A DNA stretch of 48,855 nucleotides, counting the filler, from Sphacelaria rigidula (lineage: Eukaryota): assembly GCA_964200075.2 (NCBI GenBank). It is 3 parts of 3 records of this genome, joined end to end, with 100 filler letters (N's around TTAATTAATTAA, not from the genome) between each part and the next. Parts side by side here need not be neighbours in the genome. Positions count along the whole stretch, not along the records: positions 32,639 to 48,855 come from CAXNAA020001440.1; 2 more parts are not named here. One strand, given 5' to 3'. Each line of letters starts with the position of its first letter. Within the stretch, counting starts at the first letter, position 1. The position numbers and the translations under genes were made by a program. Positions 35,937 through 41,900 of this stretch are shown in pieces. Under the pieces are notes generated by a model. It searched no databases. It was not told the origin of the DNA and worked only from the letters and a program-made list of their open reading frames with translations.

Positions 35937-38900
35937 TCACGCCTCCCCCATCGCTGTCGCCGATGCCCCTGCCCCGGCCTTCTTCTTCTTTTTGTTCTTC
36001 TTCCTTCTTGATACGGTGTCCAATATTGTTTGGGTTTCCGCGTCCACAGACTTATCCGAGCTGAACGAAGCGGGGATGAACTCGATTCCCGTAATCTGTT
36101 ACGAGCCCAGAAAAACATCCACATATTAGCTCGGGCGGCGCACAGAGATTACGGTGACTACACTGCCCACAGCTCAGCAACCTTTTGATCACGGAAACTA
36201 TCGTGGGTGACAGCCACGAGGAACATCACGATACCCGACTCGAGTCGAGTATCGCTTGTAGACTCAGGTATTTGTATTCCGCCTCTTCTTCGGGTGGCTG
36301 ATGAAGGGATCGAAGGCTCACCCGAGTAACATTCGACTCGACTCTCGGAATACACATGTTTCTCCTTCCGAATTCCATCATCCGACACATAACAACTATT
36401 TCATCATTTCCGCACAAGTGTCCTAAATCCAACAGTCACGCAATTGTAAGATCTTCGCAAGTACATTGATGCTGAAACGAGAGCTCCCGCGGCTAGTGAC
36501 CAAAAATCCACGCGCATTATCCAGGGCGCCAATATTTCGTAAAATCATATCACGGAAAGATCCGACGAGGGAGTTGACCGTTGGCTCTAATAGTTCTTCG
36601 GTCAACTCGAATGTGTATATTCTGCATAGGTCGGTCATGCACAGACCAAGATCGTTACTCTCAAATAAACCGTGATGGGCATCAAAAAGCTTCATCTCAT
36701 CATTTGTATACACATACTCTCGAGCTTCACGCATGCGAAGTTTTTCATACACCGCACCGGATACATGAACGCGATACATACACAGAGCTGAAGGTAAGAG
36801 TATCTTGGCCCCTACCTTACTGGTGCCTGACGCCAGGAGGAGAACGGTGCACTTGAAGTGCGCGACGGTATCTCCCCTGTGAGCAAACATGACTGGATAG
36901 CTCGTGAGAAGCTCGTGAGATGCACACTCCACAACTCCCAATCGTGCCTGTCGAGGAAATGGGAGAAAATATTTCGAGAGCGAGAAATGATTTTTCACGT
37001 TTACGTCACGCGATAAACATGTTTTTACACAATTGACGCATCGTCTTCATATCCCGGAGCTCTCGGCCAGGTCAATCTGTACCATGTAAGTACTACAGCA
37101 TAATGTGTGTTTAGCCCGCGACTAAAAAAAAATGTGCCGACCCACAACTAATGAGTATACTAATCCCGCACTCGCAATGCGAGCTCCAATCCCCATGATC
37201 ACCTGTTTTTCATCGTCTAACGCCCGTAAGCTAAACGGCATACTCGGGAACCGCTGGTTGACCTCATTGTAGAGGTACCTGCAGGCGGGGTGGCGACGGA
37301 AGGCGAAAATTTCGAACAACAGTTCCATGAGTGAGAATCAGCTACCGTTTCGGAGCGACCCGAGACGAAAAACATGTAGAAAGGCATGGTCCTTCGACTT
37401 TTCCGCATGTGTGGCGCAACATCAGATTACATGAGCCGAAAGTATGGATACGCCAGATTTATCCTGGTCATCCATGAAACCGGATGTGCTGAGCACCTGT
37501 ACCATATACGGACAATGAAAATGTCACGGTCAGGACGCCAGCAATTTAGAGACAGAATCTCACCGGGACGCCTTCATCTTGAGATGATAGCTCTTGTTGG
37601 GGTCCTTCTTGAATACTGTTGTCCGCACGTCTTGTTCTCGCACCTTACCGTCACCGGAACTTACGAAGACGTTCACCGCGTATACCTGCACGGCATATTT
37701 CGTCCCGGATTTCAGTAGGAAGTTTCGGCAACGAAGTGGAGCTTTCCGACTACAAAATCATCATATTCGAATGAATCGATGCGTCCCGGTACTACTGTAC
37801 CCACTCCGAGTGGTGAGCCAAGCTCGAGGTGGCCTCCGGAATTGCAGCCATCCGTGTCCACTCAAGACAACATGAACAAAACCCGCTCGAGGGGGGAAAC
37901 GATGTAGCTGCTTCCCGGCTTTTTAAAGAGAAACAACATTATAACATGTTCACCAGTGATTTAGTAGGCACTACCCGTGAGGTCCGGGCGGCACCCGTGG
38001 AATAGGTGAGCGGTTGTCTGGCCGCTGCCGGCGCGACGCAGCCTTGCACTGGTGCTTTTCAGCTCCAGAGAGGCTGCGGCCGGCGGTTGATCTAGGCGTT
38101 GGCGATGCGTTTGTGCTGGCACGATGGGAAGCAATGCCCTCACGGGTAGTGTTACATGTCAGCTTCAACACATCTACACGCCAGGAGAGAAAGTTGACAA
38201 CTAAGCAGGGATGAAGTACGACTCAAAATATCTCTTTGTTGGGGGGGCTACTTATGGAAGTGGAACGCCGTATATTTCTGTAGCGGCAAATCATTTCACT
38301 GCATCATCCCACGGACTACACGCGGGTTGCCTAACGACTCCAGGACCCCTGGACGAGAAAGGAAAGGCGCCACCCTTCGGATCCGCTTCCCTGACCCAAG
38401 ACAGAAACGACGATTCTCGAGGTTTTTCGCCCTACAAAACGTTTTGACCTCATCATGATCAAAGGTTACACGTTTTGTTTTGGGCGGCGGGAAATAAGTG
38501 GGAAATGCTTCGTTCCCTGTTTGCCCACAGCTCACCGAAGTGTACACGCCGAAACCGAGAAAAATCTCGATAACGATGGGGGGCACCCTTTTTACATGCT
38601 TGGTTGAGTAACCGCAGGATATCTGGTAAAAAAGTGACGCAAAATCTTGCACTAATCGATGAGGTTGTAGATGCTGCGGTACACATGAGGCTGATGGGTG
38701 GGGGAGTATACGCTGCATCTTTTTTGCATGTAGCCCTGTAAATATTGATCTCATATTCCTACAAGGACACAGCGCGTCGGGTTTTCGCCGGACCAGGCTT
38801 CATGACCCCATGGAAGGTGGTGACAAGTCCGTCATAACTCAACGTTTTCTCGGACGAACTTTGTTTTGTTCAACCAAGATATTCCACTCCTAGTTTGGGA

Positions 38901-41900
38901 CTCCAGTCAAGATGTACTCGCGCACCTCGTTCGCCTCGAAAGTAACCTCCTTCTCTTTGTCCTCGCTGTTGAGGGCGATTGTCTTTCCGCCGAGGCCGAA
39001 CCTGCATGTTGAGAGAAAGTGAAGCAGCGGCAGCACAGAGGCCGTCATCCTCAGAAACCGCACCACGGTCATCTCAAGCATGGAAACAATGCGCTCAGCT
39101 TCATGTAATCCAGTAAAAACCCGCGACTTGCTGACAAGTTGTTTCCCATGGCGAACAAGGGAAATATGTGAAAGTGTCTGCATGAAGAACCTTCTGCGTC
39201 ATTTACGCGCCAACGTGGAGCTAGGCGAATTTTGAGAGCTGAAAAGCCCCTTGCTGTACCCGTCGAGACGATCCCAGGTCACCTGCGCAATTTCAACATA
39301 ATCGTGATTTTTTTGCCCGAATGTGCGATTCCCTCGGACCCCTCTATTTCCTCGGAGATCAGTTGAGCCCAACAGATACTGCGACTCAGCACTTTTGTCA
39401 GCGCGTGAAGAGATACAGAAGCTCCCAAAACGCAATCTTCCACATCTTCATCCGTATCTGTAATACGAAGAGGCTCAAGGCATCATTACTCATTTCAACC
39501 TCATAAGCCATCACAGTGCAGATGCCTACGGGACGACGCACACACCTCAACCCAATCCCCAACTGGCGGGCTTCATCTTCGCATGTGTCGCGGGTTCAGG
39601 CACTTTGTTATTGGAACGAACCGTTTGATTCCTGACGGTTTCAGCTCATTGTTGCCAAGTATCGCGTAACAAAAACCTGTATCCCGTCCGTCAACACCAC
39701 ATGTGGGTGGCATTCGCGAACACAACAGCGTTTGTCTACTCGCTACCGGAGCTACAGTCAACCTCGTCGTTCCTTCCAGCATTGTCCGAGTGCCGCAGCG
39801 GGTTTTTGGTCCAGGTGACTGCGACAGGCTTGTGGAGGACGTCCACAGTAAGTGGAGGACGTCGATAGTGATGAGTTCTTGCGGTAGTCTTCACGAATTT
39901 GAACTTTCGAATCGCAGTTACAGGAGATGAATTCGTCCCCGACGAGGTTTGTCGGGCACGAACCCATCCCCCGATCACCCTCAAATTGACAGGCTCATCA
40001 TCTTTTCTTATATGCAAACGTAGCTCAGCACTGGATGATGCACGCCCTCTTGAATATAACGCTCATTTTTATCCGTCAGCATCGTGCTTAAATCAAGACG
40101 CGATGTTTCCCATCCCCCGATGAACAAAGAGCGGCTGCAGTACTTCAGAGGCGTGAGGGATTCCTGTTTACTCACCGTGTAAGCTGCTCCATTTGTGTCC
40201 CCGCGATGAATTTAACGCCGTACGCGTCTGCTACTTTTTTCGTAGCCTCCGTCACCTGTGGGCCAAACCGACGACACACGTGACGACGCTCGGTGTTCGT
40301 GATACGATCATTACGCACTCGCTCGATCTATACCATCAGGTACATCACGTCGAAAATCCTGCTGATAAGTGTGCGTGATCTAGATATAAGATTACCCACA
40401 CCGCGGTAGGAGAGTTGACAATGGGCGGAGGACGGAAAAGAAGCATGCATCAACAAGACTCTAATGAAACGCGAAGAATTTCTCGGTTCACCGAATTTTT
40501 TTCTTCCCCTCATTTATCATTGCAGTTTCTTGGCTCTACAGGGACGGGAGGGAGGGCCACCCTGGATGGTAGGGTGCTTTTTTCTCGACACCACGAAGGG
40601 CAAGCAACGGGGCTGTCGCACCGCACGATACTGTGGCGAGAAAACAACCCAGACAAAACAGGCAACATGTCGAACTTTCTACTGCACCGAATACTCGGCA
40701 ACGTGCACATGTTCACCAGTGATTTAGTAGGCACTACCCGTGAGGTCCGGGCGGCACCCGTGGAATAGGTGAGCGGTTGTCTGGCCGCTGCCGGCGCGAC
40801 GCAGCCTTGGACTGGTGCTTTTCAGCTCCAGAGAGGCTGCGGCCGGCGGTTGATCTAGGCGTGGGCGATGTGTTTGTGCTGATACAACAGACGTCGTTGT
40901 CCTTGCGGGCAAAGGCGACGTGCTTGACAGCCCAACCTCATCAAAACGCCAAGCTATTTCGACTTTCAAAACTGGAACTTGCCGGGCAAGATATACACAC
41001 CTGTTCCACCACCAACGAGAACGACAAACGGGAGTGCAATATTCCCGTCATCCTTTTGCTCACAACACGGAACCGCTCCCGGTGGGAGTGATTTCCGTAA
41101 CCGTATAACCAACGACCAGGAGCAGCGAATACAATCAAGACAGAGTTCACGACCCGAAACATCCCGGCTGAGCAACTGGGGGGGGAAGGAACAAGGATAT
41201 GCACTGGACGAACCTGTGTGTTTGTATTCCCCGCTTTGATCGTCTTGGCCGCCACCTCTGCTGCGTAGTATGCAGCAAGCACAACGTCGGCTTCGACTCC
41301 CGTCACAGCACCCGCGACTGTGGGATCCATGCCCACCTTAATTGTGTGAGCCACGACCGCCATGTAATAGTCCACGTGGCAGCCCAGCTCGATCTTTACC
41401 CAATCGCCCGCCTTTAGGGGCTCCTACTTTCGGCCAAGGACCATCCGTTGCAACATACGATGAAGGCATGTTGTGCAATGAGGCTCACGTTTCCATCAAC
41501 TGTCCTGGGCAAGAGGAAACTGCTCAACAAAAGATGAGTGCAGTATCAACGGATCGTGACATCAGGGTGGTACGAGCGAGCAAACTGACTGAACTCATTT
41601 GGTCGAGGCGTGTCTGATTTACATTCATGTATACCTCCGCCTCAAGTCAGAATCGAGAGAGCATTTGTTTGAAGTGACTTCTCTGAACGGTCAACCCAGT
41701 CAAGTTTCTTGTGTGACAGTCAGCTTAGACTCCAGAAACGGTTGAACCAAGGTCACAACGTTGCAGGGTTAGCATCAAAACATTATTTTCACCACGATAG
41801 CGTCCATTTCTTCACCATGGGTATCCACCGTGTACGACGGGCTGAGGAGCATGGCTGAAATACGGTGATAATATGGGAGCCAAACGTCCGTCAGAGGTTC

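What the first reader, a model, noticed from the sequence alone, without database searches (positions are those of the whole stretch)
37944..38184. Candidate U17/snR30 18S-processing H/ACA snoRNA hidden in a PA2G4/EBP1 intron
Seen in sequence (- strand): a 5' hairpin (GGCGU..GAUGUGUU..GCUGACA / UGCCAGC..AACGCAUC..ACGCC), then a middle hairpin (GCCGGC-CGCAGCCU..GCU-GAAA-AGC..AGGCUGCG..GCCGGC), then H box AGACAA (ANANNA). The 3' hairpin reads UCACC-[UAUUCCAC]-GGGUGCCGCCCG-loop-CGGGUAGUGCCU-ACU-[AAAUCAC]-U-GGUGA and is followed by ACA plus 3 nt. Established: U17/snR30 is the H/ACA RNA needed for 18S processing. It is defined by m1 (AUAUUCCUA) and m2 (AAACCAU) on the proximal side of the 3' hairpin's internal loop, ~7 nt before ACA, which pair with 18S ES6 sequences (GGAAUA and UGGUUU). 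Here UAUUCCA is complementary to the conserved 18S UGGAAUA, and AAAUCA pairs with UGGUUU using one G-U wobble; m2 lies 6 nt from ACA. The 18S motifs are recalled, not present in the window. Inference: this is the U17/snR30 orthologue of this lineage. I know of no description of one in brown algae, but I could not search.
Basis: partly seen in the sequence, partly recalled or inferred. Interest (0 to 1): 0.92.

Follow-up and report, generated by a model that had tools for sequence, protein, structure and literature searches.

The report
Intronic pseudouridylation guide RNA, not U17
[quoted passage not shown] It is best read as a relative of the plant snoR143 family that guides one conserved pseudouridine in 18S rRNA helix 34, not as the long-sought U17/snR30 processing RNA.

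Summary
A 239-241 nt three-hairpin H/ACA-type RNA lies on the minus strand at 38182-37944. A second copy lies at 40950-40707. Each sits in sense orientation in a spliced intron of a PA2G4-like gene.

The U17/snR30 reading is not supported:
- No U17 model matched.
- The only Rfam match is weak and to plant snoR143.
- A model built only from plant snoR143 3' domains finds exactly these two copies in the window (E 4e-6 and 3.5e-5).

The parts shared with plants are the distal pocket strands UCCAC and ACUAA. They pair canonically with 18S helix 34 around the U that is pseudouridine 1290 in yeast (13 bp in the alga; 3 of 3000 shuffles do as well).

The "m1" likeness is a by-product. The helix-34 strand and ES6 rm1 differ only by G/A transitions, so one U-rich guide fits both. 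The "m2" string is a perfect 8-nt complement of helix 34, better than its fit to ES6.

The conserved hinge (GGCCAGACAA) is also complementary to the adjacent 18S bases. It may be an accessory antisense element.

Not tested: accumulation of the RNA, this species' own 18S, and the pseudouridine itself.

The parts
37944..38182 (-). Copy A of the H/ACA snoRNA (about 239 nt): 5' hairpin, box, internal hairpin, conserved hinge, 3' guide hairpin, ACA + 3 nt
   Evidence: boundaries coincide with the limits of similarity to copy B
38095..38182 (-). 5' hairpin (GGCGU...ACGCC base), no canonical pocket; sequence diverged but stems kept in copy B
38088..38093 (-). AGAUCA, an ANANNA motif 1 nt after the 5' hairpin: candidate true H box
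   Evidence: read; inference
38027..38084 (-). Internal hairpin (CCGGCC...GCCGG); its apex is about 30 nt shorter in the related organism B
   Evidence: loose end at 40803
38011..38029 (-). Conserved hinge GGCAGCGGCCAGACAACCG, shared with land-plant snoR143. It contains AGACAA (38019-38014). GGCCAGACAA (38023-38014) is complementary to 18S UUGUCUGGUU
37950..38009 (-). 3' guide hairpin: lower stem UCACC/GGUGA, pocket, upper stem GGGUGC.GCCCG/CGGGU.GUGCCU
37997..38004 (-). It pairs with 18S helix 34 GUGGAGUG (8 bp, 6 Watson-Crick). The next best 18S site is ES6 AUGGAAUA (7 bp)
37955..37965 (-). 3' strand of the pocket, ACUAAAUCACU.
37944..37949 (-). ACA box (37949-37947) plus 3-nt tail. Similarity to copy B and to organism B ends here
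40707..40950 (-). Copy B of the same snoRNA (244 nt). Pocket strands at 40767-40760 and 40728-40718, hinge at 40792-40774, ACA at 40712-40710
37684..38923 (-). Host-gene intron holding copy A (GT..AG on the minus strand)
   Evidence: spliced contigs of runs X4 and X7 (one study), joint 37683/38924
40254..41211 (-). Host-gene intron holding copy B
   Evidence: joint 40253/41212 in X4, X7 and X10
41212..41423 (-). Exon of the PA2G4/EBP1-like host gene
   Evidence: best solved-structure matches are PA2G4, E 1e-12; Peptidase_M24 at E 2.4e-4, 21.4 bits, just under the curated cut-off of 23

Best explanation
[quoted passage not shown] It belongs to the family known in plants as snoR143 (Rfam RF01432). 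Its 3' hairpin works as a canonical pseudouridylation guide. The distal pocket strands ACUAA and (UAU)UCCAC pair with 18S rRNA helix 34 on either side of an unpaired U-G. This places the U of ...UUAGU-U-G-GUGGAG... (yeast position 1290, guided there by snR83) in the Cbf5 active site, 16 nt from the ACA box. Shown: the fold, the two intronic copies, splicing of the host, homology to plant snoR143 3' domains, and the complementarity. Inferred: that the RNA accumulates, that this alga's 18S carries the near-universal helix-34 sequence, and that the U is converted. The family's published target prediction (U2 snRNA) would then be wrong or secondary.
For: Homology. The only Rfam match at E up to 10 is snoR143. 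It covers the full model (1-169) over 38118-37944, with 15 of 15 identity across GCGGCCAGACAACCG. A pattern scan of metagenome contigs gave 50 matches in 40 loci; I judged 48 H/ACA-like by eye and 2 chance. 7 of the 8 loci tested reach Rfam's gathering score for RF01432 (12 matches, 51-180 bits); L027 does not. A covariance model built from 28 of these plant 3' domains, with no algal row, finds exactly the two window copies (30.2 bits, E 4e-6; 26.6 bits, E 3.5e-5). There is no other hit at E up to 10 in 48.8 kb. It also finds L027 at 46.4 bits.

Structure. On 48 distinct sequences the lower stem is 93% paired, and 6 of 8 pairs show changes on both sides. The three pairs that close the pocket read AU 37/GU 8, GC 40, and AU 38/GC 2/UA 1. 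The pocket is therefore UCCAC / ACUAA in plants and alga alike.

Target. Scanning a real non-plant 18S (locus L045), the alga's pocket has its best site at UUAGU[U]GGUGGAGUG. That is 5+8 = 13 bp, 11 of them Watson-Crick; 3 of 3000 shuffled pockets reach 13. The plant pocket picks the same site on a plant 18S: 10 bp, all Watson-Crick, 105 of 3000 shuffles. This U lies 10 nt 3' of the C of the CCG in the same motif. ac4C1280 and pseudouridine 1290 (snR83) are 10 nt apart in yeast helix 34. The U falls at 1285-1297 in the 8 contaminant 18S copies whose 5' end was found.

Conservation pattern. In organism B (run X10) a 237-nt contig matches 40709-40803. Its changes lie in the apical loop, at one G-U to A-U change in the stem, and at the most basal pocket position but one. 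The distal pocket, hinge and ACA are unchanged.

Context. Both copies are in sense orientation in introns defined by spliced contigs of a PA2G4 homologue.
Against: - No RNA data show a discrete 240-nt species.
- The species' own 18S and its pseudouridine map were not available; the 18S sequences used are contaminant eukaryotic rDNA in prokaryote assemblies.
- The pocket-to-ACA distance is 16 nt in the alga and 18 nt in L027, at or beyond the usual 14-16. Plants have 14.
- The model's E-values are inflated. The plant rows were retrieved with a pattern that fixes the hinge and pocket motifs, which the alga also carries.
- The Rfam match alone is not significant (E 1.8).
- The basal loop nucleotides (UAU and AUCACU) are not needed for a guide. 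They do fit ES6 rm1 (7 Watson-Crick bp) and rm2 (6 bp) with the 7-nt spacing to ACA that defines U17.
- Whether Arabidopsis has a pseudouridine at this site is in supplementary tables I could not open.
- The published target for snoR143 is U2 pseudouridine 38.
Confidence: 0.68

Rival explanations
1. It is the U17/snR30 orthologue. The basal pocket strings UAUUCCA and AAAUCA pair with ES6 rm1 and rm2 of 18S, and the RNP chaperones early 18S processing without modifying anything.
For: UAUUCCA is a perfect 7-nt complement of UGGAAUA in a real non-plant 18S. AAAUCA pairs with UGGUUU 35 nt downstream, close to the 34-nt rm1-rm2 spacing in yeast. Both strings are on the correct strands and abut the lower stem. 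AAAUCA ends 7 nt before ACA, the invariant U17 spacing. Length (about 240 nt) and a three-hairpin layout resemble Tetrahymena U17 and yeast snR30. U17 has not been identified in Arabidopsis, so a diverged form in non-opisthokonts is conceivable.
Against: - No U17/snR30 model matched at E up to 10.
- m2 is AAACCAU in all 14 tabulated species, including a ciliate. Here it is AAAUCAC, and L027 has AAAUGUCAC.
- m1 changes to UCUUCCA in a closely related organism whose flanks are otherwise identical.
- The plant homologues have no basal loop at all. Plant ES6 has different rm1/rm2 (GGGAUAAC, UUGGCCUU), which they do not match.
- The m1 likeness is expected from the helix-34 guide: 2 of 64 extensions by chance, more if the extension is selected to pair with GUG. 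The rm2 fit is nearly automatic (2944 of 4096).
- AAAUCACU fits helix 34 better (8 Watson-Crick bp).
Confidence: 0.08
2. It is a Cajal-body H/ACA RNA guiding pseudouridylation of the branch-site recognition region of U2 snRNA, as published for Arabidopsis snoR143 (U2 pseudouridine 38; human equivalent guided by ACA45).
For: Chen and Wu 2009 predicted this target for the 3' pocket of snoR143 (passages read). In most plant sequences ACAGAU and CUAC could pair on either side of that U. This is my reconstruction, using a recalled U2 sequence.
Against: - This register needs the three pocket-closing pairs to be open, yet they are paired in most of the 48 distinct sequences and covary.
- It gives only about 4+5-6 bp.
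- It puts the target 17-18 nt from ACA in plants and about 19 nt in the alga.
- In the alga the left guide would be ACGGG (two G-U pairs), taken out of a G-C-rich stem.
- Several plant variants (ACAUAU, ACUGAU, ACAGUU) break the U2 pairing.
- It does not explain the conservation of UCC, of UAA, or of the hinge.
- No conserved CAB-like UGAG loop is seen in the two copies.
Confidence: 0.07
3. The copies are relics or orphan H/ACA RNAs with no current modification target. The conservation reflects recent duplication or gene conversion only.
For: The two copies are nearly identical over 175 nt, which gene conversion could produce. No expression data exist for the mature RNA.
Against: Similarity ends exactly at the predicted RNA ends, while the flanking intron sequence is unrelated. 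A different organism keeps the hinge, pocket and ACA and varies the loops. The 3' domain is conserved as far as land plants.
Confidence: 0.1

Closest known systems
Plant snoR143 (Rfam RF01432; Arabidopsis, 171 nt, seen on northern blots; Chen and Wu 2009, PMC2685112)
   Same: Same hinge GCGGCCAGACAACCG. Same pocket strands UCCAC and ACUAA with the same 29-nt spacing between UCCAC and CUACUAA. ACA follows the lower stem. Partial similarity also exists in the 5' part (GCACAA.CGCAU, AAAGC.CCAGUGCAA).
   Different: The alga's RNA is about 70 nt longer, with an extra or extended 5' hairpin and a long internal hairpin. Its lower stem is 5 bp rather than 8-9. Its pocket is larger (8 + 11 nt rather than 5-6 + 5-6), so the distance to ACA is 16 nt rather than 14. 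It scores only 17.2 bits against the curated model (gathering score 50). It is intronic, whereas Arabidopsis snoR143 is listed as lying in a CDS.
Yeast snR83 (guide for 18S pseudouridines 1290 and 1415)
   Same: Same predicted target nucleotide in helix 34.
   Different: No second pocket for a 1415-type site is evident in the alga's 5' hairpin.
U17/snR30 (SNORA73)
   Same: H/ACA class, about 240 nt, internal hairpin, 5' hairpin without a pocket. Basal loop strings resemble m1 (6 of 9) and m2 (5 of 7), with 7 nt from AAAUCA to ACA.
   Different: m2 is not the invariant AAACCAU. The m1-like string varies between close relatives. The conserved elements are distal, not basal. Homologues in plants lack m1/m2. 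No model match.
Human ACA45/SCARNA15 (U2 pseudouridine 37 guide)
   Same: Named by Chen and Wu as the functional equivalent of snoR143.
   Different: Only a predicted functional analogy. The U2 register fits this RNA poorly (see rivals).

Membership tests
Box H/ACA snoRNA (class) | Hairpin-hinge-hairpin-tail with ANANNA in the hinge and ACA 3 nt from the 3' end | tested here: met
   Folds. AGAUCA and AGACAA are both present. ACA + 3 nt coincides with the end of similarity between the copies and with organism B. The true 3' end of the RNA was not measured.
Box H/ACA snoRNA (class) | Pseudouridylation pocket whose top lies 14-16 nt from the box | tested here: met
   3' hairpin: 11 + 5 = 16 nt, at the upper limit. 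The 5' hairpin has no such pocket.
Box H/ACA snoRNA (class) | Stable RNA bound by Cbf5/dyskerin, Nop10, Nhp2, Gar1 | not testable with these tools
   Only contigs of public runs were available.
snoR143 (RF01432) | Reaches the curated Rfam gathering score (50 bits) | tested here: not met
   17.2 bits, E 1.8; no gathering-level hit in the window.
snoR143 (RF01432) | Shared 3' domain: hinge GCGGCCAGACAACCG, pocket UCCAC/ACUAA, ACA | tested here: met
   Plant-only model R1: 30.2 and 26.6 bits, E 4e-6 and 3.5e-5, the only hits in the window. Caveat: the plant rows were retrieved with a pattern that contains these motifs.
Guide for the helix-34 pseudouridine (yeast 1290 site) | Bipartite complementarity flanking an unpaired U-N at the top of the pocket | tested here: met
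   5 + 8 bp in the alga, 5 + 5 bp in plants, the top-ranked site on real 18S sequences. Not tested on this species' own 18S.
Guide for the helix-34 pseudouridine (yeast 1290 site) | The target U is actually pseudouridine in this organism and depends on this RNA | not testable with these tools
U17/snR30 | [quoted passage not shown] | tested here: not met
   CUAUUCCAC (6 of 9) and AAAUCAC (5 of 7), against 14 of 14 tabulated species with AAACCAU. The m1-like string differs in organism B and in L027.
U17/snR30 | m1/m2 lie 7 nt upstream of ACA | tested here: met
   AAAUCA is followed by CUGGUGA (7 nt), then ACA. In L027 the spacing is 9 nt.
U17/snR30 | Complementarity to ES6 rm1 and rm2 | tested here: inconclusive
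   7 bp and 6 bp (one G-U) on a non-plant 18S. The same strings fit helix 34 as well or better, and the fit is largely expected by chance once the guide is fixed.
U17/snR30 | Match to the curated U17/snR30 covariance models | tested here: not met
   No such match at E up to 10 in 751 nt around copy A.
U17/snR30 | Required for early 18S cleavages | not testable with these tools
   Needs genetics.
scaRNA guiding U2 snRNA | Canonical pocket pairing around the U2 target at 14-16 nt from ACA, and a CAB box in a terminal loop | tested here: not met
   The register needs three covarying pairs opened and gives 17-19 nt. No conserved UGAG loop. The U2 sequence was recalled, not fetched.

The most novel reading that the evidence does not exclude
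The hinge GGCCAGACAA, conserved from land plants to this alga, is not (only) an H box. It is an accessory antisense element that pairs with 18S UUGUCUGGUU, 2-5 nt downstream of the pocket-bound segment. The snoRNP would then clamp about 27 consecutive nucleotides of the 5' strand of helix 34 (5 + 8 + 10 bp). In the alga a further 8-nt perfect complement (AAAUCACU to AGUGAUUU) lies in the basal pocket. The RNP would act both as a modification guide and as a folding chaperone for the 18S head domain. That could be the kind of role snR30 plays at ES6, in lineages where no U17 has been found.
Probability: 0.3. Interest if true: 0.55.

Novelty: new member of a known kind. Interest (0 to 1): 0.3.

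Why it matters
This removes a tempting false positive for the missing non-opisthokont U17/snR30, and it shows why the motif looks like m1. The evidence extends the plant snoR143 family to an alga, although the algal copies score below Rfam's gathering cut-off, and it suggests the family guides a conserved 18S helix-34 pseudouridine rather than U2. It also flags an unusually conserved hinge element that is complementary to the rRNA next to the target. That makes extra base-pairing in H/ACA guides directly testable.

Tried and rejected
- **Whole genome.** None is held for this window. I could not fetch the species' 18S or U2, nor scan for a canonical U17.
- **Sequencing runs.** No listed holder is on record as RNA. 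Contigs of X4 and X7 show the host spliced. They cover the introns, including both snoRNA copies, only thinly. Contigs cannot show a discrete small RNA, so nothing follows for expression.
- **Word-complementarity test.** The RNA has 27 7-mer and 5 8-mer perfect complements in a 1520-nt 18S fragment, about the number expected by chance. Single 7-8-mers, including UAUUCCA to ES6, carry little weight. Two 8-mers falling in the 41-nt helix-34 window occurred in 59 of 2000 shuffles. Clustering of 7-mers in any window was not significant (165 of 1000).
- **A mini-stem GCGG/CCGC around the hinge loop.** Variants are not compensated, so it was dropped as an explanation of the hinge conservation.
- **A second guide register using AAAUCACU as the 3' pocket strand.** No matching 5' strand was found.
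- **L027 host.** It is not a PA2G4 gene; the contig carries an unrelated ORF and an RGG-rich ORF.
- **Earlier findings.** Nothing on record.
- **Papers.** I saw passages or named sections only: PMC2685112, PMC10473218, PMC5464676, PMC8351944, PMC9045821, PMC5699541, PMC7038934, PMC6793436 (passages); PMC2664660 (sections 3, 6, 9, 10); PMC7601244 (section 7). For the 68 papers holding the 17-nt 18S string I saw the search listing only.
Full report
**What is there.**
There is a 5' hairpin, a long middle hairpin and the string AGACAA. The 3' hairpin has lower stem UCACC/GGUGA enclosing an internal loop (UAUUCCAC on the 5' side, ACUAAAUCACU on the 3' side). ACA follows, then three nucleotides.

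RNAfold gives this three-hairpin structure at -97.9 kcal/mol (z -3.51; 0 of 200 dinucleotide shuffles as stable). A 22-nt probe from the 3' hairpin occurs exactly twice in the window, against 0 expected. The second copy at 40950-40707 folds the same way (-98.7 kcal/mol, z -2.74, 1 of 200).

The two copies differ at only three positions over the 3' 175 nt. Their similarity stops three nucleotides after ACA. The 5' hairpin has diverged strongly in sequence yet keeps its stems. The unit of conservation therefore has the ends expected of an H/ACA RNA.

**Context.**
Spliced contigs from two runs of one study (X4, X7) define GT..AG introns on the minus strand at 41211-40254, 40173-39000 and 38923-37684. 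The first is also bridged in a run of another organism, X10. Copy B lies in the first intron and copy A in the third, both in sense orientation.

The exon at 41423-41212 has its best solved-structure matches in PA2G4/EBP1 (E 1e-12). Pfam gives Peptidase_M24 at E 2.4e-4, 21.4 bits, just under the curated cut-off of 23.

In the DNA-like run X1 the contigs over both copies have word depths of 15-51, against about 28 in the flanks. A 36-nt element at 38764-38799 in the same intron reaches about 87,000. As far as contigs can tell, the snoRNA is not a dispersed repeat.

**Which family.**
Rfam at gathering thresholds finds nothing in the window. A permissive search of 751 nt around copy A (E up to 10) returns a single match. 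It is to plant snoR143 (RF01432), 17.2 bits, E 1.8. It spans the whole model over 38118-37944. It shows 15 of 15 identity over GCGGCCAGACAACCG, plus UCCAC and CUACUAA at the same spacing. No U17/snR30 model appears.

On its own this match is not significant, so I looked for relatives. A gapped pattern of the three shared motifs found 50 matches in 40 metagenome contigs. Two (L024, L034) are chance matches without stems or ACA. I judged the other 48 to be H/ACA 3' domains by eye.

Of 8 loci submitted to Rfam, 7 reach the gathering score for RF01432 (12 matches, 51-180 bits). L027, which is cut at its 5' end, does not.

I then built a covariance model from 28 distinct plant 3' domains only. It finds exactly the two window copies (30.2 bits, E 4e-6; 26.6 bits, E 3.5e-5) and nothing else at E up to 10 in 48.8 kb. 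It finds L027 at 46.4 bits. These E-values are optimistic, because the retrieval pattern fixed the motifs that the alga shares. Even so, the match covers the full model and ends at ACA.

**Structure of the guide hairpin.**
The model was run over the window and all 40 metagenome loci. It gave 74 matches, 48 of them distinct, including paralogues that my pattern had missed.

On the resulting alignment the lower stem is 93% paired, with changes on both sides at 6 of 8 pairs. The three pairs that close the pocket read AU 37/GU 8/other 2, GC 40/other 7, and AU 38/GC 2/UA 1/other 5. That alignment is fitted to the model, which favours the structure.

The alga has GGG/CCU where most plants have AGA/UCU, and one plant copy has AGUUG/CAACU. 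In all of them, therefore, the pocket is bounded by these pairs and consists of ...UCCAC on the 5' side and ACUAA... on the 3' side.

**Target.**
It is present in 68 papers (search listing only). It retrieved 49 contigs from prokaryote assemblies, 38 of which are contaminant eukaryotic 18S.

I scanned one non-plant 18S (L045) with the rules of H/ACA guiding: contiguous pairs from the pocket top on both sides of an unpaired U-N. The alga's pocket has its best site at UUAGU[U]GGUGGAGUG. That is 5 + 8 = 13 bp, 11 of them Watson-Crick, with the runner-up at 8 bp. Three of 3000 shuffled pockets reach 13.

L027's pocket picks the same site (12 bp). The plant pocket picks it on a plant 18S (10 Watson-Crick bp; 105 of 3000 shuffles).

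The U lies 10 nt 3' of the C of the CCG in the same motif. It falls at position 1285-1297 in the eight 18S copies whose 5' end was found. In yeast, helix 34 carries ac4C1280 and pseudouridine 1290, made by snR83. That ac4C sits in a CCG context is my recollection. I therefore equate the predicted target with the yeast 1290 site.

The distance from pocket top to ACA is 14 nt in plants, 16 nt in the alga and 18 nt in L027. The usual range is 14-16.

**Why it looks like U17, and why I do not think it is.**
U17/snR30 is defined by three features:
- those motifs lying 7 nt from ACA;
- pairing with ES6 rm1 and rm2.

The alga has CUAUUCCAC and AAAUCAC at the right places. AAAUCA is 7 nt from ACA. On a real non-plant 18S, UAUUCCA pairs perfectly with UGGAAUA, and AAAUCA pairs with UGGUUU 35 nt downstream. 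That is a genuine resemblance. Five observations argue against it.

First, the helix-34 strand GUGGAGUG and rm1 AUGGAAUA differ only by G/A transitions. A guide with U at those positions pairs with both. With UCCAC fixed by the guide function, 2 of 64 possible three-nucleotide extensions give 7 bp or more to rm1. With ACUAA fixed, 2944 of 4096 extensions give 6 bp or more to the U/G-rich rm2 region.

Second, AAAUCACU is a perfect 8-nt complement of AGUGAUUU in helix 34. That is better than its 5 Watson-Crick pairs plus 1 G-U with rm2.

Third, the conserved part is distal. Plants have no basal loop. Plant ES6 has different rm1/rm2, which the plant RNAs do not match. L027 has AAUUCCAC and AAAUGUCAC.

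In organism B, a 237-nt contig is identical to copy B over 40709-40803 except at a few places. One is an A-to-C change inside the m1-like string. Another is a G-U to A-U change in the upper stem. The apical loop is rewritten. The internal hairpin is also shorter.

Fourth, m2 is invariant in all 14 tabulated U17/snR30 sequences, including a ciliate.

Fifth, no U17 model matched.

**The published U2 target.**
Chen and Wu predicted that the 3' pocket of snoR143 guides U2 pseudouridine 38. As I reconstruct that register, using a recalled U2 sequence, it uses ACAGAU and CUAC. It requires the three covarying pocket-closing pairs to be open. It yields about 9-10 bp and puts the target 17-19 nt from ACA.

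Several natural variants break it (ACAUAU, ACUGAU, ACAGUU). In the alga the left strand would be ACGGG, taken out of a G-C-rich stem. I rate this reading low, but it is not excluded as a second target.

**The hinge.**
GGCAGCGGCCAGACAACCG is shared by the alga, L027 and land plants. That is unusual for an H/ACA hinge, where only ANANNA is normally conserved.

GGCCAGACAA is complementary to 18S UUGUCUGGUU (10 of 10 pairs, 8 Watson-Crick). This is the single best site in 1520 nt. It begins 2 nt after the segment bound by the alga's pocket, or 5 nt after in plants, and it runs in the antiparallel sense expected for one continuous rRNA strand. UUGUCUGG is present in 30 of the 38 18S fragments.

An ANANNA also follows the 5' hairpin directly (AGAUCA in the alga, ACAGAA in moss-like copies). 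AGACAA therefore need not be the protein-bound H box.

Paralogues found by the model without my pattern give further hints. The hinge variants CUAGAUAA (two C-to-U changes) and CCGGACAA (one A-to-G) keep wobble pairing with the 18S strand. CAAGACAA does not.

Against over-reading this: 8-mer complements between the RNA and 18S occur at the chance rate overall (5 seen). Two of them falling in the helix-34 window happens in 59 of 2000 shuffles. I treat the accessory-pairing idea as a hypothesis with probability about 0.3. How the 8-nt basal complement could pair at the same time as the canonical guide is unexplained.

**Verdict.**
The RNA is a real, conserved, intronic box H/ACA snoRNA. The U17/snR30 assignment is not supported. 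The best reading is an algal member of the snoR143 family that guides the conserved helix-34 pseudouridine of 18S rRNA.

Still open are accumulation of the RNA, the species' own 18S and U2 sequences, the modification itself, and the lineage label 'brown alga'. The Arabidopsis pseudouridine tables that could test the family-wide prediction are in supplements I could not open.

Noticed in passing
window 38764-38799: A 36-nt element in the same intron as copy A has a summed contig word depth of about 87,000 in run X1, against about 28 for the flanks. It is also very deep in X4, X7 and X10, with many different loose ends on both sides. It is a very high-copy short repeat of unknown kind.
   Followed up: partly
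L004, L006, L002, L010, L017, L023 (metagenome contigs): Moss-like contigs carry several snoRNA copies each, up to 5 in L004. Among them is a paralogue group with the hinge variant GCUAGAUAACC and intact pocket, and decayed copies that have lost the hinge or have UCCAG/ACGAA pockets.
   Followed up: partly
L027:36-129 and downstream: This is the only alga-like relative found. It has left loop AAUUCCAC, right loop ACUAAAUGUCACA, and 18 nt from pocket to ACA. It lies upstream of an unrelated ORF and an RGG-rich ORF, not in a PA2G4 gene. The contig is cut 35 nt upstream of the hinge, so its 5' half is unknown.
   Followed up: partly
window 40709-40803 as seen in run X10 (organism B): In organism B the contig carrying the snoRNA homologue has a word depth (6.1) similar to or above the spliced host-exon contigs of the same run (2.6-6.0). 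In X4 and X7, exons exceed introns several-hundred-fold. Contig depths cannot rank expression, so this is only a lead that the RNA may be stable.
   Followed up: no
L041-L089 (prokaryote genome assemblies): 38 of 49 contigs retrieved with a 17-nt eukaryotic 18S string from bacterial and archaeal assemblies are eukaryotic rDNA (plant-, fungus- and protist-like). This is contamination in the public assemblies.
   Followed up: no
window 38088-38093 and 40851-40856: A second ANANNA (AGAUCA) lies directly after the 5' hairpin in both copies. Which of the two boxes is the functional H box is open.
   Followed up: partly
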